Shown: positions 1 through 17,819 of the stretch, piece after piece | Layout of the letters: each line of letters starts with the position of its first letter | Numbering within the stretch: position 1 is the first letter of the stretch | Virus record (IMG/VR): IMGVR_UViG_2541047853_000002 | DNA length: 17,819 bases | DNA from: a virus | Taxonomy: Duplodnaviria; Heunggongvirae; Uroviricota; Caudoviricetes | Reading direction: 5' to 3' (one strand) | Made by a program: the position numbers and the translations under genes | The notes under the pieces: model-generated | Told to the model about the DNA's origin: nothing | The model's database searches: none | The model's input: only the letters and a program-made list of their open reading frames with translations

Positions 1-1
1 T

Positions 2-742
2 ATGCCAACACCAAATCCTCTGGCACCGGTGAAAGGGGCCGGGACCACCCTGTGGGTTTATAACGGGAGCGGTGACCCTTATGCGAATCCGCTTTCAGAC
101 GTTGACTGGTCGCGTCTGGCAAAAGTTAAAGACCTGACGCCCGGCGAACTGACCGCTGAGTCCTATGACGACAGCTATCTCGATGATGAAAATGCGGACT
201 GGACTGCGACCGGGCAGGGGCAGAAATCTGCCGGAGATACCAGCTTCACGCTGGCGTGGATGCCCGGAGAGCAGGGGCAGCAGGCGCTGCTGGCGTGGTT
301 TAATAAAGGGGATACCCGTGCCTATAAAATCCGCTTCCCGAACGGCACGGTCGATGTGTTCCGCGGCTGGGTCAGCAGTATCGGTAAGGCGGTGACGGCG
401 AAGGAAGTGATCACCCGCACGGTGAAAGTCACCAACGTGGGACGTCCGTCGATGGCAGAAGATCGCAGCACGGTAACAGCGGCAACCGGCATGACCGTGA
501 CGCCTGCCAGCACTTCGGTGGTGAAAGGGCGGAGCATCACGCTGACCGTGGCATTCCAGCCGGAAGGCGCAACCGACAAGAGCTTCCGTGCGGTGTCTGC
601 GGATAAAACAAAAGCCACCGTGTCGGTCAGTGGTATGACCATCACCGTGAAAGGTGTTGCTGCAGGCAAGGTCAACATTCCGGTTGTATCCGGTAATGGT
701 GAACTTGCTGTGGTTGCAGGAATCACCGTCACCGACAGTTAA
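2..742 (+). CDS. V: Major tail tube protein V (complete, 246 aa) with C-terminal Ig-like domain
   Basis: ATG at 2-4. The translation closely matches my recollection of lambda gpV along its whole length, including the C-terminal Ig-like (Big_2-type) region ([12 protein letters not shown]...[12 protein letters not shown]...). It sits immediately upstream of G, as in lambda. Confidence 0.9.
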
Positions 743-757
743 TCCGGAGAGTCAGCG

Positions 758-1180
758 ATGTTCCTGAAAACCGAATCATTTGAATATAACGGTATGAGCG
801 TCACGCTTTCTGAACTGTCAGCCCTGCAGCGAATTGAGCATCTCGCCCTGCTGAAACGACAGGCAGAACAGGCGGGATCCAGTCTCAATCGACAGGTGAG
901 CGTGGAAGATCTCGTCAGAACCGGTGCTTTTCTGGTGGCGATGTCCCTGTGGCATAACCATCCGCAGAAGACAAAGATGCCGTCCATGAATGAAGCCGTT
1001 AAACAAATTGAGCAGGAAGTGCTTACCACCTGGCCCACAGAGGCAATTGCTCAGGCTGAAAATGTGGTAATGCGTCTGTCCGGTATGTCTGAGTTTGTTG
1101 TGAATGATGCCCCTGAACAGGCAGAGGACGCCGGGCCTGCAGAGCCTGTTTCTGCGGGAAAGTGTTCGACGGTGAGCTGA
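758..1180 (+). CDS. G: Tail assembly chaperone G (140 aa)
   Basis: 140-aa ORF in the lambda G position; start MFLKTESFEYNGMSVTLSELSALQRIEHL. RBS-like 'ggagag' upstream. Contains the slippery heptamer near its 3' end. Confidence 0.88.
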   Translation: MFLKTESFEYNGMSVTLSELSALQRIEHLALLKRQAEQAGSSLNRQVSVEDLVRTGAFLVAMSLWHNHPQKTKMPSMNEAVKQIEQEVLTTWPTEAIAQAENVVMRLSGMSEFVVNDAPEQAEDAGPAEPVSAGKCSTVS

Positions 1181-1596
1181 GTTTTGCCCTGAAACTGGCG
1201 CGTGAGATGGGGCGACCTGACTGGCGCGCCATGCTTGCCGGGATGTCATCCACGGAGTATGCCGACTGGCACCGCTTTTACAGTACCCATTATTTTCATG
1301 ATGTTCTGCTGGATATGCACTTTTCCGGGCTGACGTACACCGTGCTCAGCCTGTTTTTCAGCGATCCGGATATGCATCCGCTGGATTTCAGTCTGCTGAA
1401 CCGGCGCGAGGCTGACGAAGAGCCTGAAGATGATGTGCTGATGCAGAAAGCGGCAGGGCTTGCCGGAGGTGTCCGCTTTGGCCCGGACGGGAATGAAGTT
1501 ATCCCTACTTCCCCGGATGTGGCGGACATGACGGAGGATGACGTAATGCTGATGACAGTATCAGAAGGGATCGCAGGAGGAGTCCGGTATGGCTGA
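758..1596 (+). CDS. GT: G-T tail assembly chaperone fusion made by programmed -1 ribosomal frameshift
   Basis: Slippery heptamer G GGA AAG at 1156-1162 in the G frame (codons GCG GGA AAG). A -1 shift gives GGG AAA G and continues into the 1162..1596 ORF (VFDGELSFALKLAREMGRPDW...), which has no start of its own in the right context and ends 8 nt into H. This is the conserved lambda G/GT arrangement. Confidence 0.8.
1156..1162 (+). other. Slippery heptamer GGGAAAG for the G-T -1 frameshift
   Basis: Sequence 'gggaaag' read directly; the zero frame is G GGA AAG. Same heptamer class as used by lambda G-T. Confidence 0.75.
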
Positions 1597-4168: not shown

Positions 4169-4494
4169 AGACCTTCCGCTGGAAAGTGAAACCCGGTATG
4201 GATGTGGCTTCGGTCCCTTCTGTAAGAAAGGTGCGCTTTGGTGATGGCTATTCTCAGCGAGCGCCTGCCGGGCTGAATGCCAACCTGAAAACGTACAGCG
4301 TGACGCTTTCTGTCCCCCGTGAGGAGGCCACGGTACTGGAGTCGTTTCTGGAAGAGCACGGGGGCTGGAAATCCTTTCTGTGGACGCCGCCTTATGAGTG
4401 GCGGCAGATAAAGGTGACCTGCGCAAAATGGTCGTCGCGGGTCAGTATGTTGCGTGTTGAGTTCAGCGCAGAGTTTGAACAGGTGGTGAACTGA
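4165..4494 (+). CDS. M: Minor tail protein M (109 aa)
   Basis: 109-aa ORF; its start overlaps the H stop (ATGA). Position and length match lambda gpM. Confidence 0.88.
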   Translation: MKTFRWKVKPGMDVASVPSVRKVRFGDGYSQRAPAGLNANLKTYSVTLSVPREEATVLESFLEEHGGWKSFLWTPPYEWRQIKVTCAKWSSRVSMLRVEFSAEFEQVVN

Positions 4495-5192
4495 TGCAGG
4501 ATATCCGGCAGGAAACACTGAATGAATGCACCCGTGCGGAGCAGTCGGCCAGCGTGGTGCTCTGGGAAATCGACCTGACAGAGGTCGGTGGAGAACGTTA
4601 TTTTTTCTGTAATGAGCAGAACGAAAAAGGTGAGCCGGTCACCTGGCAGGGGCGACAGTATCAGCCGTATCCCATTCAGGGGAGCGGTTTTGAACTGAAT
4701 GGCAAAGGCACCAGTACGCGCCCCACGCTGACGGTTTCTAACCTGTACGGTATGGTCACCGGGATGGCGGAAGATATGCAGAGTCTGGTCGGCGGAACGG
4801 TGGTCCGGCGTAAGGTTTACGCCCGTTTTCTGGATGCGGTGAACTTCGTCAACGGAAACAGTTACGCCGATCCGGAGCAGGAGGTGATCAGCCGCTGGCG
4901 CATTGAGCAGTGCAGCGAACTGAGCGCGGTGAGTGCCTCCTTTGTACTGTCCACGCCGACGGAAACGGATGGCGCTGTTTTTCCGGGACGTATCATGCTG
5001 GCCAACACCTGCACCTGGACCTATCGCGGCGATGAGTGCGGTTATAGCGGTCCGGCGGTCGCGGATGAATATGACCAGCCGACGTCCGATATCACGAAGG
5101 ATAAATGCAGCAAATGCCTGAGTGGCTGTAAGTTTCGCAATAATGTCGGCAACTTTGGCAGCTTCCTTTCCATTAACAAACTTTCGCAGTAA
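4494..5192 (+). CDS. L: Minor tail protein L (232 aa) with C-terminal cysteine cluster
   Basis: 232-aa ORF; start overlaps the M stop (TGATG). C-terminal Cys residues (CTWTYRGDECGYSG ... DKCSKCLSGCKF) are consistent with the Fe-S-binding C-terminus described for lambda gpL. Confidence 0.88.
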   Translation: MQDIRQETLNECTRAEQSASVVLWEIDLTEVGGERYFFCNEQNEKGEPVTWQGRQYQPYPIQGSGFELNGKGTSTRPTLTVSNLYGMVTGMAEDMQSLVGGTVVRRKVYARFLDAVNFVNGNSYADPEQEVISRWRIEQCSELSAVSASFVLSTPTETDGAVFPGRIMLANTCTWTYRGDECGYSGPAVADEYDQPTSDITKDKCSKCLSGCKFRNNVGNFGSFLSINKLSQ

Positions 5193-5197
5193 ATCCC

Positions 5198-5941
5198 ATG
5201 ACACAGACAGAATCAGCGATTCTGGCGCACGCCCGGCGATGTGCGCCAGCGGAGTCGTGCGGCTTCGTGGTAAGCACGCCGGAGGGGGAAAGATATTTTC
5301 CCTGCGTGAATATCTCCGGTGAGCCGGAGGCGTATTTCCGTATGTCGCCGGAAGACTGGCTGCAGGCAGAAATGCAGGGTGAGATTGTGGCGCTGGTCCA
5401 CAGCCACCCCGGTGGTCTGCCCTGGCTGAGTGAGGCCGACCGGCGGCTGCAGGTGCAGAGTGATTTGCCGTGGTGGCTGGTCTGCCGGGGGACGATTCAT
5501 AAGTTCCGCTGTGTGCCGCATCTCACCGGGCGGCGCTTTGAGCACGGTGTGACGGACTGTTACACACTGTTCCGGGATGCTTATCATCTGGCGGGGATTG
5601 AGATGCCGGACTTTTATCGTGAGGATGACTGGTGGCGTAACGGCCAGAATCTCTATCTGGATAATCTGGAGGCGACGGGGCTGTATCAGGTGCCGTTGTC
5701 AGCGGCACAGCCGGGCGATGTGCTGCTGTGCTGTTTTGGTTCATCAGTGCCGAATCACGCCGCAATTTACTGCGGCGACGGCGAGCTGCTGCACCATATT
5801 CCTGAACAACTGAGCAAACGAGAGAGGTACACCGACAAATGGCAGCGACGCACACACTCCCTCTGGCGTCACCGGGCATGGCGCGCATCTGCCTTTACGG
5901 GGATTTACAACGATTTGGTCGCCGCATCGACCTTCGTGTGA
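5198..5941 (+). CDS. K: Tail tip assembly protein K (JAMM/MPN+ plus NlpC/P60 domains); 247 aa from the first ATG, alternative internal start at 5342 gives 199 aa
   Basis: JAMM-type motif H-S-H-x7-S-x2-D (VALVHSHPGGLPWLSEAD) with an upstream Glu (PAESCG) that exists only in the longer form. C-terminal NlpC/P60-like Cys/His (GVTDCYTLF ... NHAAIY). The 3' end overlaps I out of frame. Confidence 0.85.
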   Translation: MTQTESAILAHARRCAPAESCGFVVSTPEGERYFPCVNISGEPEAYFRMSPEDWLQAEMQGEIVALVHSHPGGLPWLSEADRRLQVQSDLPWWLVCRGTIHKFRCVPHLTGRRFEHGVTDCYTLFRDAYHLAGIEMPDFYREDDWWRNGQNLYLDNLEATGLYQVPLSAAQPGDVLLCCFGSSVPNHAAIYCGDGELLHHIPEQLSKRERYTDKWQRRTHSLWRHRAWRASAFTGIYNDLVAASTFV

Positions 5942-6510
5942 AAACGGGGGCTGAAGCCATCCGGGCACTGGCCACACAGCTCCCGGCGTTTCGTCAGAAA
6001 CTGAGCGACGGCTGGTATCAGGTACGGATTGCCGGGCGGGACGTCAGCACGTCCGGGTTAACGGCGCAGTTACATGAGACTCTGCCTGATGGCGCTGTGA
6101 TTCATATTGTTCCCAGAGTCGCCGGGGCCAAGTCAGGTGGCGTATTCCAGATTGTCCTGGGGGCTGCCGCCATTGCCGGATCATTCTTTACCGCCGGAGC
6201 CACCCTTGCAGCATGGGGGGCAGCCATTGGGACCGGTGGTATGACCGGCATCCTGTTTTCTCTCGGTGCCAGTATGGTGCTCGGTGGTGTGGCGCAGATG
6301 CTGGCACCGAAAGCCAGAACTCCCCGTACACAGACAACGGATAACGGTAAGCAGAACACCTATTTCTCCTCACTGGATAACATGGTTGCCCAGGGCAATG
6401 TTCTGCCTGTTCTGTACGGGGAAATGCGCGTGGGGTCTCGCGTGGTTTCTCAGGAGATCAGCACGGCAGACGAAGGGGACGGTGGTCAGGTTGTGGTGAT
6501 TGGTCGCTGA
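5839..6510 (+). CDS. I: Tail tip assembly protein I (223 aa)
   Basis: 223-aa ORF overlapping the 3' end of K in another frame. Hydrophobic Gly/Ala-rich C-terminal half (IVLGAAAIAGSFFTAGATLAAWGAAIG). Same length as lambda gpI. Confidence 0.88.
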   Translation: MAATHTLPLASPGMARICLYGDLQRFGRRIDLRVKTGAEAIRALATQLPAFRQKLSDGWYQVRIAGRDVSTSGLTAQLHETLPDGAVIHIVPRVAGAKSGGVFQIVLGAAAIAGSFFTAGATLAAWGAAIGTGGMTGILFSLGASMVLGGVAQMLAPKARTPRTQTTDNGKQNTYFSSLDNMVAQGNVLPVLYGEMRVGSRVVSQEISTADEGDGGQVVVIGR

Positions 6511-6528
6511 TGCAAAATGTTTTATGTG

Positions 6529-6548
6529 AAACCGCCTGCGGGCGGTTT
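6529..6548 (+). terminator. GC-rich hairpin followed by a short T-run between I and J (candidate weak terminator or attenuator)
   Basis: 'aaaccgcc' - tgcg - 'ggcggttt' forms a perfect 8-bp stem with a 4-nt loop, followed by 'tgtcattt'. Lies 19 nt after the I stop and about 20 nt before the J RBS. Confidence 0.35.
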
Positions 6549-6570
6549 TGTCATTTATGGAGCGTGAGGA

Positions 6571-9500
6571 ATGGGTAAAGGCAGCAGTAAGGGGCATACC
6601 CCGCGCGAAGCGAAGGACAACCTGAAGTCCACGCAGCTGCTGAGTGTGATCGATGCCATCAGCGAAGGGCCGGTTGAAGGTCCGGTGGATGGATTAAAAA
6701 GCGTGCTGCTGAACAGTACGCCGGTGCTGGACACTGAGGGGAATACCAACATCTCCGGTGTCACGGTGGTGTTCCGTGCCGGTGAGCAGGAGCAGACACC
6801 GCCGGAGGGGTTTGAATCCTCCGGCTCCGAGACGGTGCTGGGTACGGAAGTGAAATATGACACGCCGATCACCCGCACCATTACGTCTGCAAACATCGAC
6901 CGTCTGCGCTTTACCTTCGGCGTGCAGGCACTGGTGGAAACCACCTCAAAGGGGGACCGGAATCCGTCGGAAGTCCGCCTGCTGGTTCAGATCCAGCGTA
7001 ATGGTGGCTGGGTGACGGAAAAAGACATCACCATTAAGGGCAAAACCACCTCGCAGTATCTGGCCTCGGTGGTGGTGGGTAACCTGCCGCCGCGCCCGTT
7101 CAATATACGGATGCGCAGGATGACGCCGGACAGCACCACAGACCAGCTGCAGAACAAAACGCTCTGGTCGTCATACACCGAAATCATCGATGTGAAACAG
7201 TGCTACCCGAACACGGCACTGGTCGGCGTGCAGGTGGATTCGGAGCAGTTCGGCAGCCAGCAGGTGAGCCGTAATTATCATCTGCGCGGGCGCATTCTGC
7301 AGGTGCCGTCGAACTATAACCCGCAGACGCGGCAATACAGCGGTATCTGGGACGGAACGTTTAAGCCAGCATACAGCAACAACATGGCCTGGTGTCTGTG
7401 GGATATGCTGACCCATCCGCGCTACGGCATGGGGAAACGTCTTGGTGCGGCGGATGTGGACAAATGGGCGCTGTATGTCATCGGCCAGCATTGCGATCAG
7501 TCGGTGCCGGACGGTTTTGGCGGCACAGAGCCGCGCATCACCTGTAATGCGTACCTGACCACACAGCGCAAGGCGTGGGATGTGCTCAGTGATTTCTGCT
7601 CTGCGATGCGCTGTATGCCGGTATGGAACGGGCAGACGCTGACGTTCGTGCAGGACCGACCGTCGGATAAGGTGTGGACCTATAACCGCAGTAATGTGGT
7701 GATGCCGGATGATGGTGCGCCGTTCCGCTACAGCTTCAGCGCCCTGAAGGACCGCCATAATGCCGTTGAGGTGAACTGGATTGACCCGAATAACGGCTGG
7801 GAGACGGCGACAGAGCTTGTGGAGGACACGCAGGCCATTGCCCGTTACGGTCGTAACGTCACGAAGATGGATGCTTTTGGCTGTACCAGCCGGGGGCAGG
7901 CACACCGCGCCGGGCTGTGGCTGATTAAAACAGAACTGCTGGAAACGCAGACCGTGGACTTCAGCGTGGGTGCCGAAGGGCTTCGCCATGTACCGGGCGA
8001 TGTCATTGAAATCTGCGATGATGACTATGCCGGTATCCGCACCGGCGGGCGCGTGCTGGCGGTAAACAGCCAGACCCGGACGCTGACGCTCGACCGTGAA
8101 ATCACGCTGCCATCTTCCGGCACCACGCTGATAAGCCTGGTTGACGGGCAGGGGAGTCCGGTCAGCGTGGAGGTTCAGTCCGTCACCGACGGCGTGAAGG
8201 TGAAAGTGAGCCGTGTTCCTGACGGCGTTGCTGAATACAGCGTATGGGGGCTGAAGCTGTCGACGTTGCGCCAGCGCCTGTTCCGCTGCGTGAGTATCCG
8301 TGAGAACGACGACGGCACGTATGCCATCACCGCCGTGCAGCATGTACCGGAAAAAGAGGCCATCGTGGATAACGGGGCGCACTTTGACGGCGACCAGAGC
8401 GGCACGGTAAATGGTGTCACGCCGCCAGCGGTGCAGCACCTGACCGCAGAAGTCACCGCAGACAGCGGGGAATACCAGGTGCTGGCGCGCTGGGACACGC
8501 CGAAGGTGGTGAAGGGCGTGAGCTTCCTGCTTCGCCTGACCGTGGCAGCGGATGACGGCCGTGAGCGGCTGGTCAGCACGGCCCGGACGACGGAAACCAC
8601 TTACCGCTTCACACAACTGGCTCTGGGGAACTACAGGCTGACAGTCCGGGCAGTAAATGCGTGGGGGCAGCAGGGCGATCCGGCGTCGGTATCGTTCCGG
8701 ATTGCCGCACCGGCAGCGCCGTCGCGGATTGAGCTGACGCCGGGCTATTTTCAGATAACCGCCACGCCGCATCTTGCGGTTTATGACCCGACGGTACAGT
8801 TTGAGTTCTGGTTCTCGGAAAAACGGATTGCGGATATCAGGCAGGTTGAAACCAGCGCGCGTTATCTTGGTACGGCACTGTACTGGATAGCCGCCAGTAT
8901 CAATATCAAACCGGGCCATGATTATTATTTTTACGTTCGCAGTGTGAACACCGTTGGCAAATCGGCATTCGTGGAGGCTGTCGGTCAGCCGAGTGATGAT
9001 GCATCAGGCTATCTGGATTTTTTCAAAGGCGAGATAGGGAAAACCCATCTGGCTCAGGAGCTGTGGACGCAGATTGATAACGGTCAGCTTGCGCCTGACC
9101 TGACTGAAATCAGGACGTCCATAACGGATGTCAGCAATGAAATAACACAGACCGTCAATAAGAAACTGGAAGACCAGAGTGCGGCAATCCAGCAGATACA
9201 GAAGGTTCAGGTTGATACAAATAATAACCTGAACAGCATGTGGGCAGTGAAGCTGCAGCAGATGCAGGACGGACGCCTTTATATTGCGGGTATCGGTGCC
9301 GGTATTGAGAACACCCCTGACGGCATGCAGAGTCAGGTGCTGCTGGCAGCAGACAGGATTGCGATGATTAATCCTGCGAATGGCAACACAAAGCCGATGT
9401 TTGTTGGTCAGGGCGATCAGATATTCATGAATGAAGTGTTCCTGAAACGCCTGACGGCCCCCACCATTACCAGCGGTGGCAGTCCTCCGGTATTTTCCCT

Positions 9501-10068
9501 GACATCAGACGGAAAGCTGACCGCTAAAAATGCGGATATCAGTGGTAGTGTGAATGCGAACTCAGGAACGCTCAACAATGTCACGATTAACCAGAACTGT
9601 ACGATTAAGGGCATGCTGGAGGCGACCCAGGTCAGAGGGGATTTCGTTAAAGCTGTATCAAAAGCCTTCCCGAAAAAAGTCGGTACGTGGGGTAACACGG
9701 AAACACCAAACGGTACGGTTACAGTCACCATCAGCGATGATCATAACTTTGACCGCCAGATTATTATTCCGCCCATTATTTTTAACGGTATAGCGTATGA
9801 CGATCCGGGGAGCGGAAATAACCCAGGAGGCACGCGATACACGGGTTATGGTTTTGAAGTTCGCAAAAACGGCGTATTAATCGCATCCAGAGAAACTAAA
9901 GGGGCCATTCCCGGTAGTTACAGTGCAGTTATTGATATGCCTAGTGGTGGTGGTAGCGTCACTCTGGAGTTTAAGATTTTCCAGAAAGGCAATCAGGGGG
10001 CAGGCAATATCACCGACTGTACGGTGATTGTGACCAAAAAAGCCGCTTCCGGCATCAGTATTCGTTGA
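6571..10068 (+). CDS. J: Central tail fibre / host specificity protein J (1165 aa)
   Basis: Very large ORF after I with RBS 'gagga'. Fibronectin type III-like segment (about 8400-8700: ...[27 protein letters not shown]). Size is similar to lambda gpJ (about 1132 aa). The C-terminal 300 aa or so has lower GC than the rest. Confidence 0.93.
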
Positions 10069-10089
10069 AATTGTTATAACCCATATAAG

Positions 10090-10113
10090 GGCACCAGAAA
10101 TGGTGCCTTTTTT
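10090..10113 (+). terminator. Rho-independent terminator downstream of J
   Basis: 'ggcacca' - gaaa - 'tggtgcc' stem-loop followed by 'ttttttatt'. Confidence 0.6.
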
Positions 10114-10137
10114 ATTGCAGAAAAGCGAGAGGTAATT

Positions 10138-10737
10138 ATGCGTAAACTTTATGCCGCCATTTTGTCCGCAGCCATTTGTCTGGCCGTATCCGGTGCGCCT
10201 GCATGGGCATCTGAACATCAGTCCACGCTGAGCGCGGGGTATCTTCATGCCTCGACGAACGTTCCCGGCAGCGATGATCTTAACGGGATTAACGTGAAAT
10301 ACCGTTATGAGTTTACGGACACACTGGGGCTGGTGACGTCATTCAGCTATGCAGGAGACAAGAATCGCCAGCTTACCCGTTACAGCGATACCCGCTGGCA
10401 TGAAGATTCCGTTCGTAACCGCTGGTTCAGCGTGATGGCGGGGCCGTCTGTGCGCGTGAATGAATGGTTCAGCGCGTATGCGATGGCGGGTATGGCTTAC
10501 AGCCGTGTGTCGACTTTCTCCGGGGATTATCTCCGCGTAACTGACAACAAGGGGAAAACGCACGACGTGCTGACCGGAAGTGATGACGGTCGCCACAGCA
10601 ACACGTCTCTGGCGTGGGGGGCTGGCATGCAGTTTAACCCGACCGAATCCGTGGCCATTGATATTGCTTATGAAGGTTCCGGCAGTGGTGACTGGCGCAC
10701 TGACGGTTTCATCGTGGGTGTCGGTTATAAATTCTGA
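10138..10737 (+). CDS. lom: Lom outer-membrane beta-barrel protein (Ail/Lom/PagC/OmpX family), 199 aa
   Basis: Signal peptide ([24 protein letters not shown]) and a C-terminal aromatic residue (…GVGYKF) typical of outer-membrane beta-barrels. Sits between J and stf as in lambda. Own RBS 'gagagg', and flanked by terminators on both sides (moron-like). Confidence 0.88.
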
Positions 10738-10764
10738 TTAGCCAGGTAACACAGTGTTATGACA

Positions 10765-10790
10765 GCCCGCCGGTTCAGGCGGGTTTTTTT
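10765..10790 (+). terminator. Rho-independent terminator downstream of lom
   Basis: 'gcccgcc' - ggttca - 'ggcgggt' stem-loop followed by a run of seven T. Confidence 0.65.
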
Positions 10791-10801
10791 GTGGGGTGAA
10801 T

Positions 10802-13800
10802 ATGGCAGTAAAGATTTCAGGTGTACTGAAAGACGGCACAGGAAAACCGGTACAGAACTGCACAATCCAGCTGAAAGCAAAACGTAACAGCACCACGGTG
10901 GTGGTGAACACGCTGGCCTCAGAAAATCCGGATGAAGCCGGGCGTTACAGCATGGACGTTGAGTACGGTCAGTACAGCGTTATTCTGTTGGTGGAGGGAT
11001 TCCCGCCGTCACATGCCGGGACCATCACCGTGTATGAAGATTCCCGACCCGGTACGCTGAATGATTTTCTCGGTGCCATGACGGAGGATGATGCCCGTCC
11101 TGAGGCACTGCGCCGTTTTGAACTGATGGTGGAAGAGGTGGCGCGTAACGCGTCCGCGGTGGCACAGAACACGGCAGCCGCGAAGAAGTCAGCCAGCGAT
11201 GCCAGCACATCAGCCCGTGAGGCGGCAACCCATGCGACTGATGCTGCAGGCTCAGCACGCGCAGCCAGCACGTCAGCCGGACAGGCCGCGTCGTCGGCTC
11301 AGTCAGCATCTTCCAGCGCAGGAACGGCATCAACAAAGGCCAGTGAAGCATCGAAAAGTGCTGCTGCTGCAGAGTCCTCAAAAAGCGCGGCAGCTACCAG
11401 TGCCGGTGCGGCGAAAACGTCAGAAACGAATGCGGCAGCGTCACAACAATCAGCAGCCACTTCTGCATCCGCCGCGACCACGAAGGCGTCAGAAGCAGCC
11501 ACCTCAGCCCGGGATGCGGCGGCCTCAAAAGAGGCAGCGAAATCATCAGAAACGAACGCATCATCAAGCGCCAGTAGTGCCGCTTCCTCGGCAACGGCGG
11601 CAGGCAATTCCGCGAAGGCGGCAAAGACGTCTGAGACAAACGCCAGGTCTTCTGAAACGGCAGCGGGACAGAGCGCCTCGGCTGCGGCAGGCTCAAAAAC
11701 AGCGGCTGCGTCGTCTGCCAGTGCCGCGTCAACAAGTGCCGGGCAGGCCTCAGCCAGTGCCACCGCCGCCGGAAAATCGGCAGAAAGCGCCGCATCGTCT
11801 GCTTCAACAGCCACAACGAAGGCTGGCGAAGCCACTGAACAGGCCAGCGCAGCAGCAAGGTCTGCTTCCGCAGCGAAGACATCCGAGACGAACGCGAAAG
11901 CGTCGGAAACCAGCGCAGAATCCTCAAAAACGGCTGCCGCATCGTCCGCCAGTTCGGCGGCGTCATCGGCATCATCGGCGTCTGCTTCAAAAGATGAGGC
12001 GACCAGACAAGCGTCCGCAGCGAAGGGCAGCGCCACGACGGCATCCACGAAGGCGACAGAGGCAGCTGGCAGTGCGACGGCGGCAGCACAGAGCAAAAGT
12101 ACGGCGGAATCCGCGGCAACGCGCGCCGAGACAGCGGCAAAACGGGCAGAGGATATTGCATCCGCCGTGGCGCTTGAGGATGCAAGTACGACGAAAAAGG
12201 GGATAGTACAGCTCAGCAGTGCGACCAACAGTACGTCTGAAACGCTGGCGGCAACGCCAAAGGCAGTAAAATCAGCCTATGACAATGCAGAGAAACGTCT
12301 GCAGAAAGACCAGAACGGCGCTGATATACCCGATAAGGGACGCTTCCTGAACAACATTAACGCGGTCAGTAAAACAGACTTTGCTGATAAGCGTGGTATG
12401 CGTTATGTGCGGGTTAACGCTCCTGCAGGTGCAACATCTGGAAAATATTACCCTGTTGTTGTTATGCGTTCTGCTGGCTCAGTAAGCGAACTGGCATCAA
12501 GGGTCATTATCACCACGGCAACGCGAACCGCAGGCGATCCGATGAATAACTGCGAGTTTAACGGATTTGTTATGCCTGGTGGCTGGACTGACAGGGGGCG
12601 TTATGCTTATGGAATGTTCTGGCAATATCAAAACAATGAACGAGCCATCCACTCAATAATGATGAGTAATAAGGGCGATGATTTGCGCTCTGTGTTCTAT
12701 GTTGATGGCGCTGCTTTCCCTGTTTTTGCGTTTATCGAAGATGGCCTGTCAATATCCGCACCTGGTGCTGATCTCGTTGTTAATGATACGACCTATAAGT
12801 TTGGGGCAACAAATCCGGCGACTGAATGTATCGCGGCGGACGTTATCCTTGATTTTAAGAGTGGGCGTGGTTTTTATGAGTCTCATTCGTTAATCGTTAA
12901 CGATAACTTGTCGTGCAAAAAACTTTTTGCCACAGACGAAATTGTAGCGCGTGGTGGTAATCAGATTCGAATGATAGGTGGGGAGTATGGGGCATTATGG
13001 CGTAATGATGGCGCTAAAACTTACCTGCTGCTTACCAATCAAGGTGATGTTTATGGTGGCTGGAATACATTAAGACCGTTTGCTATTGATAACGCAACCG
13101 GCGAACTGGTTATTGGAACCAAACTGTCCGCAAGTCTGAACGGTAATGCATTAACAGCAACAAAGCTGCAAACGCCAAGACGGGTTTCTGGTGTTGAGTT
13201 TGATGGTTCCAAAGATATTACTTTAACCGCCGCGCATGTGGCTGCTTTTGCCAGAAGGGCAACGGATACATATGCCGATGCGGATGGTGGCGTTCCCTGG
13301 AATGCCGAATCAGGCGCTTATAATGTCACCCGCTCTGGCGACAGCTATATTCTGGTTAACTTCTATACCGGAGTCGGAAGTTGCCGGACCTTGCAGATGA
13401 AGGCGCATTACAGAAATGGTGGTCTGTTCTACCGTTCTTCAAGAGACGGTTATGGTTTTGAGGATGACTGGGCAGAAGTTTATACCTCGAAAAATCTTCC
13501 ACCAGAAAGCTACCCAGTCGGCGCACCAATCCCGTGGCCATCAGATACCGTTCCGTCTGGTTATGCCCTGATGCAGGGGCAGACTTTTGACAAATCTGCT
13601 TACCCGAAACTTGCAGCCGCTTATCCGTCAGGCGTGATCCCTGATATGCGTGGCTGGACGATTAAGGGCAAACCTGCCAGTGGTCGGGCCGTATTGTCTC
13701 AGGAACAGGACGGCATTAAATCGCATACCCACAGCGCCAGCGCATCCAGTACAGATTTGGGGACGAAAACCACATCGTCGTTTGATTACGGCACTAAATC

Positions 13801-14200
13801 CACGAATAACACTGGTGCGCATACCCATAGTTTAAGTGGCAGCACGAATGCAGCTGGTAATCACAGCCATAGAGATGGCCGTCGATTTAACCCCAGTGTT
13901 TTTAAAGATACTTATCAATATGGTTATACAAGCTCAGGTCAAAATACCTGGGGTGTACAAGGCTCAGTAGGTATGTCTACGGGGTGGTTAGCGAATACCA
14001 GTACAGATGGTAATCATAGCCATTCACTGTCCGGCACAGCAGCATCTGCAGGTGCACACGCGCATACTGTCGGTATTGGTGCTCATACGCACTCCGTTGC
14101 GATTGGTTCACATGGACACACCATCACCGTTAACGCTGCTGGTAACGCGGAAAACACCGTCAAAAACATCGCATTTAACTATATTGTGAGGCTTGCATAA
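10802..14200 (+). CDS. stf: Side tail fibre protein Stf (about 1132 aa from ATG 10802; the ORF track starts 2 codons upstream at GTG 10796)
   Basis: N-terminus [26 protein letters not shown] is typical of the lambdoid Stf tail-attachment domain. Followed by a long Ala/Ser/Thr-rich repetitive shaft, a conserved fibre motif ([27 protein letters not shown]), and a His-rich HxH-repeat C-terminus. RBS 'ggggtg' before ATG 10802. Stop overlaps the tfa start (TAATG). Confidence 0.9.
11150..12210 (+). repeat. Ala/Ser/Thr-rich low-complexity coding repeat in the stf shaft (GC about 70%)
   Basis: Recurring peptide units such as AAKTSETNA (four copies with small variations) and [10 protein letters not shown] tracts. 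This codon-biased GC-rich repeat produces long spurious ORFs in the other frames. Confidence 0.75.
13724..14125 (+). other. His-rich HxH repeat region of the Stf C-terminus (putative metal-coordinating fibre tip)
   Basis: Motifs [46 protein letters not shown] read from the translation. They resemble the HxH iron-binding repeats of the T4 gp37 distal tip. Confidence 0.55.
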
Positions 14201-14775
14201 TGGCATTCAGAATGAGTGAACAACCACGGACCATAAAAATTTATAATCTGCTGGCCGGAACTAATGAATTTATTGGTGAAGGTGACGCATATATTCCGCC
14301 TCATACAGGTCTGCCAGCAAACAGTACCGATATTGCACCACCAGATATTCCTGCTGGCTTTGTGGCTGTTTTCAACAGTGATGAGGCATCGTGGCATCTC
14401 GTTGAAGATCATCAGGGTAAAACGGTTTATGACGTAGCTTCCGGCGACGCGTTATTTATTTCTGAACTCGGTCCGTTACCGAAAAATGTTACCTGGTTAT
14501 CGCCGGAAGGGGAGTTTCAGAAGTGGAACGGCACAGCCTGGGTGAAGGATACGGAAGCAGAAAAACTGTTCCGGATCCGGGAGGCGGAAGAAACAAAAAA
14601 CAACCTGATGCAGGTAGCCAGTGAGCATATTGCGCCGCTTCAGGATGCTGCAGATCTGGAAATTGCAACGGAGGAAGAAATCTCGTTGCTGGAAGCATGG
14701 AAAAAGTATCGGGTATTGCTGAACCGTGTTGATACGTCAACTGCACAGGATATTGAATGGCCAGCACTGCCGTAG
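14200..14775 (+). CDS. tfa: Tail fibre assembly protein Tfa (191 aa)
   Basis: ORF directly coupled to stf. The C-terminal motif [36 protein letters not shown] is characteristic of the Tfa/gp38-like assembly chaperones of lambdoid and P2-like phages. Confidence 0.9.
14620..14742 (+). repeat. tfa 3' repeat, copy 1 (direct repeat partner of 17391-17513)
   Basis: About 123 bp with roughly 88% identity to 17391-17513 in the same orientation (aligned by eye, about 15 mismatches). Confidence 0.8.
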
Positions 14776-14872: not shown

Positions 14873-15463
14873 TTATATGTCAGGTGTCTGAAGTTTTGCT
14901 TTGGCTCTTAAAATGGTTTGCCGCGAGGTTTTGAATTCCCGGGCAATGGCACTTATACTTACACCTGACTTAATTCGTTCGAATACCACCTGTTTCTGTT
15001 CTTCATTTAACACAGGTGGTCGACCAAAACGTTTCCCTGCGCCGCGGGCTCTTACTATCCCGGAATGAGTGCGTTCAAGTAAAAGGTCTCGTTCAAATTC
15101 AGCGACTGCTGAAATTACGTGCATCATCATTTTTCCTGTTGGACTGGTCAGGTCAATGCCCCCCAATGCTAAGCAATGCACTCTGATACCTGTTTCGGTC
15201 AGTTGTTCCACTGTTTTCCTGATATCCATTGCATTACAACCAAGGCGATCCAGTTTTGTCACAATCAATTGATCACCACATTTCAGGCGAGCAAGCAACC
15301 GGTTAAAACCAGGACGCTCACTGGTTGCTGCTGAGCCGCTAATGTGTTCTTCGATTATTTGCTGAGGTTTGATTTTAAAACCTGCACTTTCGATTTCCCG
15401 GCGTTGATTTTCGATGGTCTGATCCAGCGTTGATATCCGACAGTAAGCAAAAATTCGAGACAT
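14873..15463 (-). CDS. pin: Serine recombinase of the DNA-invertase family (Pin/Gin/Hin-like; PinR/PinQ-type), 196 aa
   Basis: N-terminal catalytic motif ([12 protein letters not shown], Ser nucleophile), the resolvase/invertase catalytic domain, and a C-terminal helix-turn-helix ([21 protein letters not shown]). Convergent with tfa. I recall this as closely matching the Rac/Qin prophage invertases of E. coli, but I could not verify by search. Confidence 0.88.
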
Positions 15464-15600
15464 AGTGAGACTCTATACGAAATTGGTGTTCATATCATAA
15501 TGCATCTCAGAAAATAATTTTGATTATTTTTGTGCATATTTGTATGTACACGTTCGAAAATAAACGAATGCGTATGCAACCCCGTAATTTTGGTGAGACC

Positions 15601-15614
15601 CAAAATCGATTTTG
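15601..15614. promoter_or_regulatory. Perfect 14-bp palindrome CAAAATCGATTTTG, nested with a second inverted repeat, in the pin upstream region
   Basis: Read directly. The second inverted repeat is AATTTTGG (15586-15593) against CCAAAAT (15599-15605). Located about 140 bp upstream of the pin start codon. Function unknown. Confidence 0.25.
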
Positions 15615-15779
15615 TGAAAAATGGCTTTAACTCGGTTTGTTTTTCGAGTTCCGGGCGGACTCAAGGAAGAAGAATAGTGTTGCGTGTTATTTTAACCAGA
15701 TTTCAAGTTGTTTGATCGTGGAAAAGTGGAGCAAAATGTTGTTAAAGTGGAAAAATGATAAAAAAGTAAGTTTATTATA

Positions 15780-16013
15780 TTACATTTTACCATTTAAATT
15801 TTGGTTGTCTTTAAGAACTGATATCGCTGTTTGTAATAATTCTTTGTTATCCAGCCATGATTTTTTCTTTATGTTTCCTTCAATGTAATCAAGCAATGTT
15901 CTGGTATTGATAGGTCTTCCCTGTTTTGCTACTTCCACTACAGCATCCCCTAGGATAATTCTTACTTCAGGAAGCTGCGCAGGGAACCACTTTAGGGTGT
16001 CTTTTGATTTCAT
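15780..16013 (-). CDS. ydfK: Small prophage protein resembling YdfK/YnaE (cold-shock-induced in E. coli Rac/Qin); 77 aa from ATG 16013, 88 aa if ATG 16046 is used
   Basis: The translation MKSKDTLKWFPAQLPEVRIILGDAVVEVAKQGRPINTRTLLDYIEGNIKKK... matches my recollection of YdfK/YnaE. Lies just upstream of pin on the same strand, as in Rac and Qin. Identity is from memory, not a search. Confidence 0.6.
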   Translation of the reverse strand: MKSKDTLKWFPAQLPEVRIILGDAVVEVAKQGRPINTRTLLDYIEGNIKKKSWLDNKELLQTAISVLKDNQNLNGKM

Positions 16014-16510
16014 GAAGATATTCCTTAAAATATTATTGATTTTCATTGCGATATTGTATGTCTGATTCAGGATATGTTGACTTATACATCGGTTTTGTCT
16101 GGGTTATTGGATATGCCAATCCCTAATTTTATTAGGGCATGACTAAAAATGCTGAATATGATAAGGAGAGAAGTGATTATCAGTATGCTGTTCATATAGC
16201 CTCGAATTAGTAATGTGTTATATATGATATAGTTGACAATTTTTATCCTGGGTGTTCTTAAAGTTCGTAGATAAACATTGTCGTTTCAGGTATACAGGAA
16301 TGCTAACAGGTGGCGGCAAAAATCAGGCGGTTTATGGCGCAAGCTGAAGTGGCAACTGCAAACTATCTTATGCAGAGACTCTACACGGATTGGGTTTAAA
16401 AGTATACATAGATAACAGTTTTTATCTGAAGAAGAAAAATATCAAGGTGATATAGCCTATATGCCTATGATGCGGAGGAATGAATGTGATGGGAGTGATG
16501 TATCTGAATA

Positions 16511-16555
16511 GTTGAAAAACCGCAGACACGCCTTATGCAAGAACGTGCTGCGGTT
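16511..16555 (-). terminator. Rho-independent terminator downstream of the methyltransferase gene (minus strand)
   Basis: Inverted repeat 'aaccgcagacacg' (16518-16530) against 'cgtgctgcggtt' (16544-16555). On the minus strand the stem is followed by 'tttttcaac'. It begins 6 nt after the methyltransferase stop. Confidence 0.5.
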
Positions 16556-16560
16556 GGATG

Positions 16561-17229
16561 CTATTTTTTCCCTGAAGCGGAAAACATTACTACAGTACCT
16601 TGAACCTTGGTTTTAACATTCTCGAAATGCTCTGAGAGTATATGTGTTAAGCCTTCTTCGGAATCTTTTGTGTTTGAAAAGATGCCTTTCTGATTGTAAA
16701 TGCGCATCAGTTTTTGACCGAAGCTATTGTGCACAACTCCATCGCCAAGAATTGTGGCTCCGTATAGAGTTCCATCGTCAGTTAAGGCCTGCGCCGCATT
16801 GCGTATTACACAGCTTTTTGTAGATATATTTCCAGGCAGGCAGTGAAGAAGGTAAAACATGGAAATGGAATCAAATTGACCATGTAACGCCGCGGGATAA
16901 GGTTCAAAAACATCATGGTTAATTTTATGTTTAATTTTTGATTCCCCAGCCCTTGTAGATGCCGCGTTCAGGCTAGCTTCGTTCAAATCCATTAAAGATA
17001 TCAGACTACTCTCAGGTACGTGAGTAAGGTAAAACCCAGTTCCAACACCAATATCCAGATGGTTGTTACCTAAATGTTCCAGAAAGTGTGGAAGAAGGTG
17101 TTCCTTTGTAGGACATCCCCATGCAAGCCGATTTGATACTCCCAAAACCCACCAGTCATAAAGCTTTAGGGTAAGTGGTGTGTAAATTTTAGCCCCATCA
17201 TCTGTGTTTTTTTTCATTAATTTCACCAT
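16561..17229 (-). CDS. Class I SAM-dependent methyltransferase (222 aa), target unknown
   Basis: Rossmann-fold motif I (LDIGVGTGFY), an acidic residue after beta-2 (LMDLNE), and a motif-II-like HDVF. No (D/N/S)PP(Y/F/W) motif, so it is probably not a DNA amino-methyltransferase. Low-GC gene. It may correspond to the ybcY-type methyltransferase found near tfa remnants in the E. coli DLP12 prophage (recollection only). Confidence 0.75.
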   Translation of the reverse strand: MVKLMKKNTDDGAKIYTPLTLKLYDWWVLGVSNRLAWGCPTKEHLLPHFLEHLGNNHLDIGVGTGFYLTHVPESSLISLMDLNEASLNAASTRAGESKIKHKINHDVFEPYPAALHGQFDSISMFYLLHCLPGNISTKSCVIRNAAQALTDDGTLYGATILGDGVVHNSFGQKLMRIYNQKGIFSNTKDSEEGLTHILSEHFENVKTKVQGTVVMFSASGKK

Positions 17230-17285
17230 GTTATAGTTTTATTTGTGAATTAAATCAATTATGGCGATGAATTACAAGGGGTTAA

Positions 17286-17591
17286 ATGCTGCCGCAGCAT
17301 AGCGATATTGAAATAGCCTGGTATGCTTCGATACAGCAGGAGCCGAATGGCTGGAAGACCGTCACCACACAGTTCTACATCCAGGAATTCAGTGAGTATA
17401 TTGCGCCACTGCAGGATGCTGTAGATCTGGAAATCGCAACGGAGGAAGAAAGATCGTTGCTGGAGGCATGGAATAAATATCGGGTATTGTTGAATCGAGT
17501 TGATACATCAGTAGCTCTGGGTATGAAGCTGTTTGTAACTCATGTTACAGTAACAGTCATTACTATCTCGAAGGTGCAAAATGTATATTGA
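17286..17591 (+). pseudogene. Truncated, degenerate tail-fibre-assembly (tfa-like) remnant
   Basis: The 101-aa ORF contains [40 protein letters not shown], about 90% identical to the Tfa C-terminus at 14620-14742. The N-terminal 38 aa and the tail after VDTS do not match Tfa, and it is far shorter than the 191-aa Tfa. Confidence 0.6.
17391..17513 (+). repeat. tfa 3' repeat, copy 2 (direct repeat partner of 14620-14742)
   Basis: See copy 1. Same orientation, roughly 88% nucleotide identity. Confidence 0.8.
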
Positions 17592-17758
17592 TTTGATATT
17601 TTATAAATTTACTTCGAATCTGGCACGTCAACTTTTGATTAAAGTAATATCAGTTTTCGGCGAAAAAAGGACCGTGTACATGAGACGATTTCATACAATA
17701 ATAACAAAAATATGAATATGCTCCCTAGACTGGCCCCCTGAATCTCCAGACAACCAGT

Positions 17759-17776
17759 ATCACTTAAATAAGTGAT
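17759..17776. promoter_or_regulatory. Operator-like perfect palindrome ATCACTTA-AA-TAAGTGAT upstream of a gene start at the window edge
   Basis: Read directly: 8-bp arms with a 2-bp spacer. Followed by two ACTAGT copies (17786-17791 and 17798-17803), an RBS-like 'ggag', and an ATG at 17817-17819 at the very end of the window. Confidence 0.3.
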
Positions 17777-17819
17777 AGTCTTAATACTAGTTTTTAGACT
17801 AGTCATTGGAGAACAGATG

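What the first reader, a model, noticed from the sequence alone, without database searches (positions are those of the whole stretch)
15464..17819. AT-rich accessory island with an intact methyltransferase of unknown target
From about 15464 onward the sequence is much more AT-rich than the tail module (sampled 60-nt stretches in stf and J ranged from about 33% to 73% GC). The island encodes a complete 222-aa class I SAM-dependent methyltransferase with its own terminator. It lacks the DPPY/NPPY motif of DNA amino-methyltransferases, so its substrate may be RNA, protein or a small molecule. A similar methyltransferase is, as I recall, only a pseudogene in the E. coli K-12 DLP12 prophage; an intact copy at a prophage tail-fibre-proximal hotspot could be a moron with a host-fitness or anti-phage role. 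No partner genes (nuclease, ATPase, toxin) are visible, so this is a lone gene and not a demonstrable multi-gene system.
Basis: partly seen in the sequence, partly recalled or inferred. Interest (0 to 1): 0.5.

Follow-up and report, generated by a model that had tools for sequence, protein, structure and literature searches.

The report
Intact ybcY methyltransferase in prophage cargo
The AT-rich stretch is real, but it is the well-known cargo region at the right end of an E. coli lambda-like prophage, and its methyltransferase is the intact form of the K-12 pseudogene ybcY, found in about 70% of complete E. coli genomes and still of unknown substrate.

Summary
From 15464 to 17725 GC is 0.38, against 0.57 in the tail genes. 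An intact class I SAM methyltransferase ORF lies at 16561-17229 (-), followed by a strong terminator hairpin.

The gene is not new. It is the intact allele of K-12 ybcY (DLP12 prophage, ompT locus). It occurs at 95% identity or more in 3831 of 5426 complete E. coli genomes, belongs to PHROG 2132, and is carried by free lambdoid phages such as ev243, Turner and Kati.

The true start is probably Met5, giving 218 aa. The island is composite:
- pin, ydfK and ynaM form one exchangeable module.
- ybcY and a tfaX relic form a second module.
- An IS2 end begins at 17725.

In related phages the cargo continues with an alpha/beta hydrolase, ompT, attP and int.

The protein belongs to an uncharacterised family conserved from Gammaproteobacteria to ascomycete fungi. 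Its relatives in other genera are stand-alone chromosomal genes with no conserved partner. Sequence and fold neighbours are small-molecule and lipid methyltransferases. It has no DNA-methyltransferase motif and no real match to known defence systems.

Best reading: a moron-type, independently transcribed small-molecule methyltransferase under purifying selection, substrate unknown. Interest is low.

The parts
14873..15463 (-). Pin-type serine DNA invertase (196 aa). It lies just left of the finding and is the first gene of the exchangeable pin-ydfK-ynaM module.
   Evidence: Pfam Resolvase 2.5e-36 plus HTH_7. Annotated 'recombinase family protein' or 'DNA invertase' in identical loci. No gix/hix-like crossover site in the window.
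15780..16013 (-). ydfK/ynaE-type prophage cold-shock protein gene (77 aa). The mechanical ORF runs up to 16046.
   Evidence: A locus with 100% identical DNA is annotated 'cold shock protein YdfK', WP_000836768.1. PHROG 2718, 2.8e-47, aligned to residues 12-88 of the long ORF.
16082..16195 (-). ynaM/ynfT small hydrophobic protein gene (37 aa).
   Evidence: Pfam PF23676 YnaM, 6.5e-28. Annotated in identical loci. ORF located.
16514..16555 (-). Intrinsic terminator of the methyltransferase gene (hairpin plus U run). It is also the shared boundary of the two cargo modules.
   Evidence: RNA fold -22.3 kcal/mol, z = -4.2. Phage matches to module 1 end at query 1107, and matches to module 2 begin at query 1057, which is window 16520-16570.
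16561..17217 (-). Class I SAM-dependent methyltransferase, the intact ybcY allele. 218 aa from the conserved Met5. The longer 222-aa ORF reaches 17229.
   Evidence: Pfam Methyltransf_12/23/25/11. PHROG 2132, 2.7e-156, aligned 5-222 to a 218-position profile. Homologues start at Met5. The Nissle allele has ACG in place of the first ATG. About 99% identical to K-12 ybcY. AF2 pLDDT 89.5 with a Rossmann-type methyltransferase fold.
17230..17258 (-). Sigma-70 promoter-like element TTGATT-17-TATAAC, directly upstream of the methyltransferase gene.
   Evidence: Read directly from the sequence and conserved in all alleles compared. The same hexamers are listed for ybcY inside an RpoD genomic-SELEX peak, with an H-NS mark in the ybcY/tfaX spacer, in PMC3946193. 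A second promoter-like site lies at 17285-17258.
17286..17591 (+). tfaX-like relic of a tail-fibre assembly gene (101-aa ORF, C-terminal Caudo_TAP part only).
   Evidence: Pfam Caudo_TAP 9.1e-18, covering profile positions 75-121 only. PHROG 2341. RefSeq annotates 17379-17591 as an incomplete tail fiber assembly protein. A sub-threshold Rfam IS009 match covers it.
17379..17524 (+). Right copy of a 146-nt direct repeat (84% identical). The left copy is 14608-14753, in the 3' end of tfa. The pair brackets the pin-ydfK-ynaM-ybcY cargo.
   Evidence: the repeat finder family D1.
17725..17819 (+). Left end of an IS2 element. The window ends at the first codon of its transposase.
   Evidence: 100% match to the IS2 copy in L002 at 4940-5034, where the transposase CDS starts at 5032. 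Homology to uninterrupted loci stops at 17725. No complete genome in the collection holds this junction.

Best explanation
The region is the start of the accessory (lambda 'b-region'-like) cargo of a lambdoid prophage at the E. coli argU/DLP12-ompT locus. The cargo lies between the side tail-fibre genes (stf, tfa) and the phage attachment site.

It is a mosaic of two independently exchangeable modules, interrupted by an IS2 insertion at 17725:
- pin, ydfK and ynaM.
- ybcY and a tfaX relic.

The methyltransferase is the intact form of K-12 ybcY. It is a moron-type gene. It is read leftward, opposite to the tail operon, from its own sigma-70 promoter (probably H-NS-modulated) and ends at its own intrinsic terminator. 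It can therefore be expressed from the repressed prophage.

The 218-aa product is a stand-alone class I SAM-dependent methyltransferase. It most likely methylates a small, probably lipophilic, metabolite or xenobiotic, not DNA. It was captured from a family of single-gene chromosomal methyltransferases of Gammaproteobacteria.

Shown: identity, anatomy, distribution, fold, and purifying selection.
Inferred: expression in lysogens, substrate class, and host benefit.
For: Locus and identity:
- DNA 100% identical over 15464-17725 occurs in many E. coli chromosomes. The annotated order there is J, lom, stf, tfa, recombinase, ydfK, ynaM, methyltransferase, tfa relic, alpha/beta hydrolase, ompT, envY.
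- K-12 has tfaD, ybcY (pseudogene), tfaX, appY, ompT inside the annotated DLP12 prophage. K-12 ybcY is about 99% identical, with a 2-nt deletion at the start codon.

Phage carriage:
- Free phages ev243 and Turner have tfa, (pin-ydfK-ynaM), methyltransferase, tfaX, hydrolase, ompT, int.
- The whole window is 98% identical to phage Kati.

Modules:
- Phages carry query 1-1107 or query 1057-2262 separately.
- O157 TW14359 has Mn catalase, ferritin-like and KGG stress genes in the same slot.
- A 146-nt repeat of the tfa 3' end brackets the slot.

Moron features:
- Promoter hexamers are present. PMC3946193 reports an RpoD genomic-SELEX peak plus an H-NS mark in this spacer.
- A terminator follows the gene.
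- GC is 0.41.

Enzyme class:
- Pfam methyltransferase families pass their gathering scores.
- Motif I LDIGVGTG and the acidic D81 are invariant.
- The AF2 model has pLDDT 89.5.
- The best sequence and fold neighbours are JHAMT, UbiG, PmtA, NodS, phosphoethanolamine methyltransferase and natural-product methyltransferases.
- One family member is fused to a cytochrome P450.
- The protein has pI about 7 and no [DNS]PP[YFW] motif.

Selection and retention:
- dN/dS is 0.10-0.12 against Citrobacter and Enterobacter homologues and 0.17 against the Nissle allele.
- The gene is at 95% identity or more in 3831 of 5426 complete genomes.
- In Nissle 1917 the prophage is reduced to argU, int relic, tfa relic, intact methyltransferase, ompT.

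Origin:
- Homologues at 56-65% identity in Salmonella and Enterobacter are stand-alone chromosomal genes.
- Only the Escherichia and Shigella copies are flanked by tfa sequence.
Against: - No substrate is known for any member of the family. All relatives found carry only generic names.
- Expression in a lysogen was not measured. The cited promoter is an in vitro binding peak with a sequence-predicted hexamer pair, and H-NS may silence it.
- K-12 lives without the gene, and a K-12 ybcY mutant showed no effect in the one screen found. However, the K-12 gene is already a pseudogene.
- The gene sits close to the prophage end, so position alone could partly explain its survival in decayed prophages.
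Confidence: 0.65

Rival explanations
1. The methyltransferase acts on nucleic acid (host or phage DNA, tRNA or rRNA). It would serve anti-restriction, superinfection exclusion or another phage-defence or counter-defence role.
For: - It sits in a prophage cargo hotspot where defence genes are often found (established knowledge).
- There is a weak PADLOC match to mad2, E = 7e-4.
Against: - It has no [DNS]PP[YFW] motif and no DNA C5 or N6 methyltransferase Pfam hit.
- It is only 218 aa, with no extra target-recognition or RNA-binding domain, and pI is about 7.
- The PADLOC match covers only the generic methyltransferase core, at 16.6 bits.
- Homologues in other genera are lone chromosomal genes with no nuclease, ATPase or other conserved neighbour.
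- Closely related family members occur in filamentous fungi.
- The nearest sequence hits are all small-molecule enzymes.
Confidence: 0.1
2. The gene is a functionless passenger in E. coli. It persists because it lies next to the prophage end and ompT, and it gives no benefit to phage or host.
For: - It is a pseudogene in K-12.
- Truncated and frameshifted copies exist, for example a 161-aa cluster with 445 members and 668-nt copies.
- It is AT-rich DNA with H-NS binding reported in the spacer.
- No phenotype is known.
Against: - dN/dS is well below 1, both within E. coli and across genera.
- The main full-length cluster has 6589 member sequences, against a few hundred in truncated clusters.
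- The gene is intact in Nissle 1917, where nearly all other prophage genes are gone.
- Promoter hexamers and the Met5 start are conserved across phylogroups.
- 32 residues are invariant across bacterial and fungal members.
Confidence: 0.15
3. The enzyme is a protein methyltransferase, for example acting on a ribosomal, envelope or phage protein.
For: Class I methyltransferases of this size include protein methyltransferases (established knowledge). No substrate has been excluded experimentally.
Against: - No protein methyltransferase family (PrmA, PrmB/C, CheR, PCMT) was hit in Pfam or NCBIfam.
- No protein methyltransferase was seen among the top fold neighbours listed.
- No gene for a candidate substrate is conserved nearby.
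Confidence: 0.07

Closest known systems
E. coli K-12 ybcY (b0562), DLP12 cryptic prophage pseudogene
   Same: - Same gene at the same locus: between a tfa gene and tfaX, upstream of ompT.
- About 99% nucleotide identity.
- Same promoter hexamers and the same terminator region.
   Different: - The window copy is intact. K-12 has a 2-nt deletion in the A-run that removes the conserved ATG (Met5), plus three missense changes.
- In K-12 the pin-ydfK-ynaM module is absent.
- In K-12 appY replaces the alpha/beta hydrolase.
PHROG 2132 and RefSeq WP_000239874.1 'class I SAM-dependent methyltransferase' of lambdoid phages (ev243 gp26, Turner CDS0021)
   Same: Full-length match at 2.7e-156. The DNA is 98.6-99.9% identical in free phages and lies in the same position after the tail-fibre assembly gene.
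   Different: Nothing substantive differs. These entries also have no assigned function.
Lambda-type morons (a transcriptionally autonomous gene with its own promoter and terminator, inserted between phage genes)
   Same: - Own promoter-like element and own terminator.
- Opposite orientation to the late operon.
- Deviant base composition.
- Present or absent among otherwise near-identical phages.
   Different: Expression from the repressed prophage and a benefit to the lysogen have not been shown for this gene.
Small-molecule and lipid class I methyltransferases: JHAMT (7ec0), UbiG (4kdr), bacterial PmtA (8ys9), NodS (3ofj), phosphoethanolamine methyltransferase (3uj7)
   Same: - Same Rossmann-type fold with an N-terminal helical cap.
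- They are the best sequence hits in the PDB (profile E = 1.2e-5 to JHAMT).
- They are the best Foldseek hits (E = 1e-12 to 1e-10).
   Different: - Only 13-21% identity, with TM about 0.55-0.67.
- NCBIfam equivalog scores are 16-18 bits, against cut-offs of 175-390.
- The family-specific invariant motifs (YDxxVL, WxC, YLLHCLPG, YNxxGIFxN) are not those of any of these enzymes, as far as the alignments show.

Membership tests
Class I (Rossmann-fold) SAM-dependent methyltransferases | Glycine-rich motif I (D/E-x-G-x-G-x-G) and an acidic residue at the end of strand 2 that binds the SAM ribose | tested here: met
   LDIGVGTG at residues 58-65 and D81 (DLN). Both are invariant in 30 enterobacterial homologues and in 20 diverse bacterial and fungal members.
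Class I (Rossmann-fold) SAM-dependent methyltransferases | Profile match above the curated threshold | tested here: met
   Methyltransf_12 scores 39.2 bits (cut-off 30). Methyltransf_23, _25 and _11 are also above their cut-offs.
Class I (Rossmann-fold) SAM-dependent methyltransferases | Seven-stranded alpha/beta fold | tested here: met
Class I (Rossmann-fold) SAM-dependent methyltransferases | SAM binding and methyl transfer | not testable with these tools
   This needs biochemistry.
DNA N6-adenine / N4-cytosine amino-methyltransferases | (D/N/S)PP(Y/F/W) catalytic motif | tested here: not met
   A regular-expression search of the protein finds none.
DNA N6-adenine / N4-cytosine amino-methyltransferases | Target-recognition domain, or a profile hit to N6_Mtase, N6_N4_Mtase or MethyltransfD12 | tested here: not met
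   No such Pfam or NCBIfam hit. The protein is a single 218-aa domain.
Known anti-phage defence systems (PADLOC-DB v2) | Significant match to a defence-system protein model, together with the system's partner genes | tested here: not met
   The only hit is mad2 at E = 7e-4 and 16.6 bits, over the generic methyltransferase core. No partner genes occur in the window or next to homologues.
Orthologue of E. coli ybcY (DLP12) | High sequence identity and conserved position between tfa and tfaX, next to ompT | tested here: met
   About 99% nucleotide identity to K-12 ybcY. Same gene order in K-12, 2013C-3181, DSM 103263, TW14359 and Nissle.
Phage moron | Own promoter and own terminator | tested here: met
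   TTGATT-17-TATAAC lies at 17258-17230 and is conserved. The same site is in an RpoD SELEX peak in K-12. The terminator hairpin has z = -4.2. Both are sequence-level or in vitro evidence.
Phage moron | Present or absent among otherwise closely related phages, with deviant composition | tested here: met
   PhiR34_1, 2H10 and mEp332 match the tail module but lack the methyltransferase part. ev243 and 2G7b have it without the pin module. GC is 0.41, against 0.57 in the tail genes.
Phage moron | Expression from the repressed prophage and an effect on the lysogen | not testable with these tools
   No transcript or phenotype data were found.
UbiG / RquA / PmtA / CpaM equivalogs (NCBIfam) | Score above the curated equivalog cut-off | tested here: not met
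   Scores are 16.3-17.7 bits, against cut-offs of 175-390.

The most novel reading that the evidence does not exclude
YbcY may represent an uncharacterised, deeply conserved family of stand-alone small-molecule methyltransferases, found from Gammaproteobacteria to Ascomycota at 40-50% identity. Lambdoid phages picked it up and deliver it to E. coli together with OmpT and a secreted-type alpha/beta hydrolase. E. coli then keeps it after the prophage decays, because it methylates a common lipophilic metabolite or gut xenobiotic and improves host fitness. That would make it a domesticated phage gene with a defined chemistry.
Probability: 0.15. Interest if true: 0.5.

Novelty: already known. Interest (0 to 1): 0.2.

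Why it matters
As a feature it adds little. The gene, its locus and its pseudogene status in K-12 are already annotated, and nothing here is a new kind of system.

A modest open question remains. A strongly conserved methyltransferase family has no known substrate, yet it is kept intact in most E. coli, including Nissle 1917 and O157:H7. It sits beside the phage-borne ompT virulence gene, in a cargo slot bracketed by repeated tfa sequence that swaps stress-related modules. Finding its substrate would annotate thousands of genomes. It would also show whether this is a case of phage-gene domestication.

Tried and rejected
- The consensus terminator scan found nothing. Direct folding was needed to see the terminator.
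- I looked for a conserved partner gene around 80 homologous loci from different species, using ORF calling and all-against-all BLAST. Neighbours are conserved only within Pseudomonas (crotonase-family protein, CorA, a small protein), which is ordinary synteny. Nothing is shared across genera.
- I tested whether the phage alpha/beta hydrolase is related to the hydrolase next to the Enterobacter homologue. Only the fold is shared (20% identity over 100 aa), so I rejected the link.
- Pfam scans of longer family members showed one P450 fusion and one RCC1 fusion, probably eukaryotic. This is a weak hint of small-molecule chemistry, not a functional assignment.
- PADLOC gave no real defence hit.
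- Rfam gave only a sub-threshold IS009 match on the tfaX relic and a chance-level CssrB hit.
- A search for Gin/Hin/Pin-type crossover sites found none.
- Literature searches for ybcY and related terms returned no functional study. They gave a promoter and H-NS table entry, a negative phenotype note and a gene-order description.
- I considered a Tyr/His catalytic dyad like that of phosphoethanolamine methyltransferases (invariant Tyr in the N-terminal helix, invariant His in YLLHCLPG). I could not test it because model coordinates and structural superpositions are not exposed.
Full report
**Observation**

The base-composition shift is real. GC is 0.57 over the tail genes at 1-10795, 0.53 in stf, 0.48 in tfa and 0.45 in pin. 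It is 0.378 over 15464-17725, with a minimum of 0.318 at 15751-16250.

An uninterrupted 222-codon ORF lies at 16561-17229 on the minus strand. It passes the Pfam gathering thresholds of Methyltransf_12, _23, _25 and _11.

The consensus scan reported no terminator. Folding the 76 nt after the stop codon gives a 13-bp GC-rich hairpin followed by a U run, at -22.3 kcal/mol and z = -4.2 against shuffles. The hairpin and U run occupy window 16514-16555.

The protein has no [DNS]PP[YFWH] motif.

**What else is in the interval**

Annotated E. coli loci are 100% identical to 15464-17725 (locus L001). Together with family scans they show:
- ydfK, a prophage cold-shock protein, at 15780-16013 (-) (PHROG 2718).
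- ynaM/ynfT, a 37-aa small protein, at 16082-16195 (-) (Pfam PF23676).
- The methyltransferase.
- A relic of a tail-fibre assembly gene (tfaX type) at 17286-17591 (+). It matches only the C-terminal part of Caudo_TAP.

Homology to uninterrupted loci stops at 17725. The last 95 bases are the left end of IS2, up to the first codon of its transposase. None of the 5426 complete genomes in the collection holds this junction.

Immediately to the left, at 14873-15463 (-), is a Pin-type serine invertase.

**Where it sits**

The flanking genes in identical loci are J, lom, stf, tfa on the left. On the right are an alpha/beta hydrolase (494 aa), ompT, envY, ybcH and nfrA. This is the argU/DLP12 locus.

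K-12 MG1655 has tfaD, ybcY (annotated pseudogene), tfaX, appY and ompT, all inside the annotated DLP12 prophage. An alignment shows K-12 ybcY is about 99% identical to the window gene. It differs by a 2-nt deletion in the A-run at the 5' end and three missense changes. The window gene is the intact allele of ybcY.

**Start codon**

Four lines of evidence point to Met5, giving a 218-aa product:
- Homologues in 29 other taxa begin at the window's Met5, which is invariant.
- The 218-position PHROG 2132 profile aligns to residues 5-222.
- The Nissle 1917 allele has ACG instead of the first ATG and is annotated from Met5.
- The K-12 deletion removes exactly the Met5 ATG.

**Promoter**

On the minus strand, TTGATT-17-TATAAC occupies 17258-17230 and abuts the first ATG. 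It is conserved in K-12, O157, Nissle and phage ev243.

The same hexamer pair is listed for ybcY inside an RpoD-holoenzyme genomic-SELEX peak in the ybcY/tfaX spacer. That entry carries an H-NS mark (PMC3946193). A start 5-9 nt after this -10 element would leave only a very short leader before Met5. A second promoter-like site lies at 17285-17258.

With the terminator, this gives the anatomy of a transcriptionally autonomous moron oriented against the tail operon. Transcription in a lysogen was not measured.

**The region is phage cargo and is modular**

Free lambdoid phages carry it. The whole window is 97.9% identical over 98% of its length to phage Kati.
- Phage Turner has tfa, invertase, ydfK, ynaM, methyltransferase, tfaX, hydrolase, ompT and int.
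- Phage ev243 (Nesevirus) has the methyltransferase and tfaX directly after its tail-fibre genes. They are followed by hydrolase, ompT and int.

The interval is therefore the first part of a roughly 6-kb accessory region between the tail fibres and the attachment site, and ompT is part of the same cargo.

Phage matches fall into two classes. One covers query 1-1107 (pin-side module) and the other covers query 1057-2262 (methyltransferase plus tfaX). They overlap only at the methyltransferase terminator.

In O157:H7 TW14359 the slot between tfa and the methyltransferase holds Mn catalase, two ferritin-like genes and a KGG stress protein instead.

A 146-nt direct repeat (84% identical) of the tfa 3' end lies at 14608-14753 and 17379-17524 and brackets the slot. 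It offers homology for cassette exchange or deletion. That last step is an inference.

**Distribution**

The methyltransferase gene is present at 95% identity or more in 3831 of 5426 complete E. coli genomes. In 3798 of them the match covers at least 80% of the gene, with one copy at the median and up to four. The main full-length protein cluster holds 6589 member sequences.

In Nissle 1917 the prophage is reduced to argU, an integrase relic, a tfa relic, the intact 218-aa methyltransferase and ompT.

dN/dS is 0.17 against the Nissle allele (8 differences). It is 0.10 and 0.12 against the Citrobacter and Enterobacter homologues. The gene is therefore under purifying selection, although K-12 and some other strains have lost it.

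**The protein family**

Homologues at 56-65% identity in Salmonella and Enterobacter are single chromosomal genes in non-prophage contexts.

A scan of one genome per species found 527 relatives. The best 80 came from Enterobacterales, Pasteurellaceae, Pseudomonas, Xanthomonadales and Oxalobacteraceae, plus a few other lineages and metagenome bins. Among the fetched loci, only the Escherichia and Shigella-type copies are flanked by tfa sequence. That group includes two metagenome bins that are probably contaminated. Neighbour genes are conserved only within Pseudomonas.

The exhaustive representative search gave 195 clusters at E < 1e-30. These include ascomycete proteins at 40-50% identity, such as those of Aspergillus, Fusarium, Trichoderma and Thermomyces. 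All have generic names.

Across 20 bacterial and fungal members, 32 positions are invariant. Several fall in the family's conserved motifs: YD in the N-terminal helix, WxC, the GVG core of motif I, D in DLN, LH in the YLLHCLPG motif, and Y and G in YNxxGIF.

No NCBIfam equivalog is approached.

**Likely activity**

The AF2 model is confident, with pLDDT 89.5. PDB sequence profiles hit juvenile-hormone acid methyltransferase (E = 1.2e-5), UbiG, ToxA/XrdM and phospholipid N-methyltransferases.

One family member is fused to a cytochrome P450. The protein is a single domain with pI about 7.

I therefore commit to a small, probably lipophilic, metabolite or xenobiotic as substrate. This is an inference from neighbours, not a demonstrated activity.

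A DNA-modifying or defence role has no positive support. The only PADLOC hit is a 16.6-bit match to a generic methyltransferase core, and no partner genes exist.

**Comparison and verdict**

The feature is the already annotated ybcY/PHROG 2132 gene in the well-known DLP12-ompT prophage cargo.

The suggestion of novelty or of an anti-phage role is not supported. The island is larger and more composite than described.

Literature searches found no functional study. Interest is low. The only open point is the unknown substrate of a widely conserved and widely retained enzyme.

Noticed in passing
L092 7926-8879 and L093 8982-9935 (phages ev243 and Turner); beyond the right end of the window: ompT (omptin protease) and a 494-aa alpha/beta hydrolase (Abhydrolase_1 plus a TAP-like C-terminus) are carried inside free lambdoid phage genomes, between the methyltransferase and int. 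The E. coli ompT locus is therefore phage cargo that can still move.
   Followed up: partly
window 14873-15463 (-): The Pin-type DNA invertase has no recognisable partner. The window holds no inverted second copy of stf or tfa, and a Gin/Hin/Pin-type crossover-site pattern has no match with up to 3 mismatches. It looks like an orphan invertase, as in Rac and Qin.
   Followed up: partly
window 14608-14753 and 17379-17524: A 146-nt direct repeat (84% identical) of the tfa 3' end brackets the pin-ydfK-ynaM-ybcY cargo. In O157 TW14359 (L090) the same slot holds Mn catalase, two ferritin-like genes and a KGG stress protein.
   Followed up: partly
window 17725-17819: The IS2 left end is inserted just after the tfaX relic. 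None of the 5426 complete E. coli genomes searched has this junction, so it is a strain-specific insertion. A different IS2 insertion sits between ynaM and the methyltransferase in strain DSM 103263 (L002).
   Followed up: yes
window 17309-17512 (+): A sub-threshold Rfam match to the E. coli candidate sRNA family IS009 (107.7 bits, gathering score 117) lies on the tfaX relic. A partial second match lies at the 3' end of tfa (14700-14741). The 'sRNA' family seems to be modelled on tfa-derived sequence.
   Followed up: no
window 11000-12250 (inside stf, 10796-14200): The side tail-fibre gene has a long Ala/Ser/Thr-rich repetitive stretch. It contains several short direct-repeat families and a strong AT skew, up to 0.43.
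   Followed up: no
L011 (MAG 'Bacillus sp.' PUUB54_bin.016) and L021 (MAG 'Planococcaceae bacterium UBA3370'): Short contigs binned as Firmicutes carry the E. coli methyltransferase and tfaX at 99-100% identity. This is most likely contamination or mis-binning of E. coli prophage DNA.
   Followed up: no
window 16520-16570: The methyltransferase terminator is the only sequence shared by the two cargo modules as they occur separately in phages (query 1-1107 and query 1057-2262). It may act as a recombination boundary between modules.
   Followed up: no
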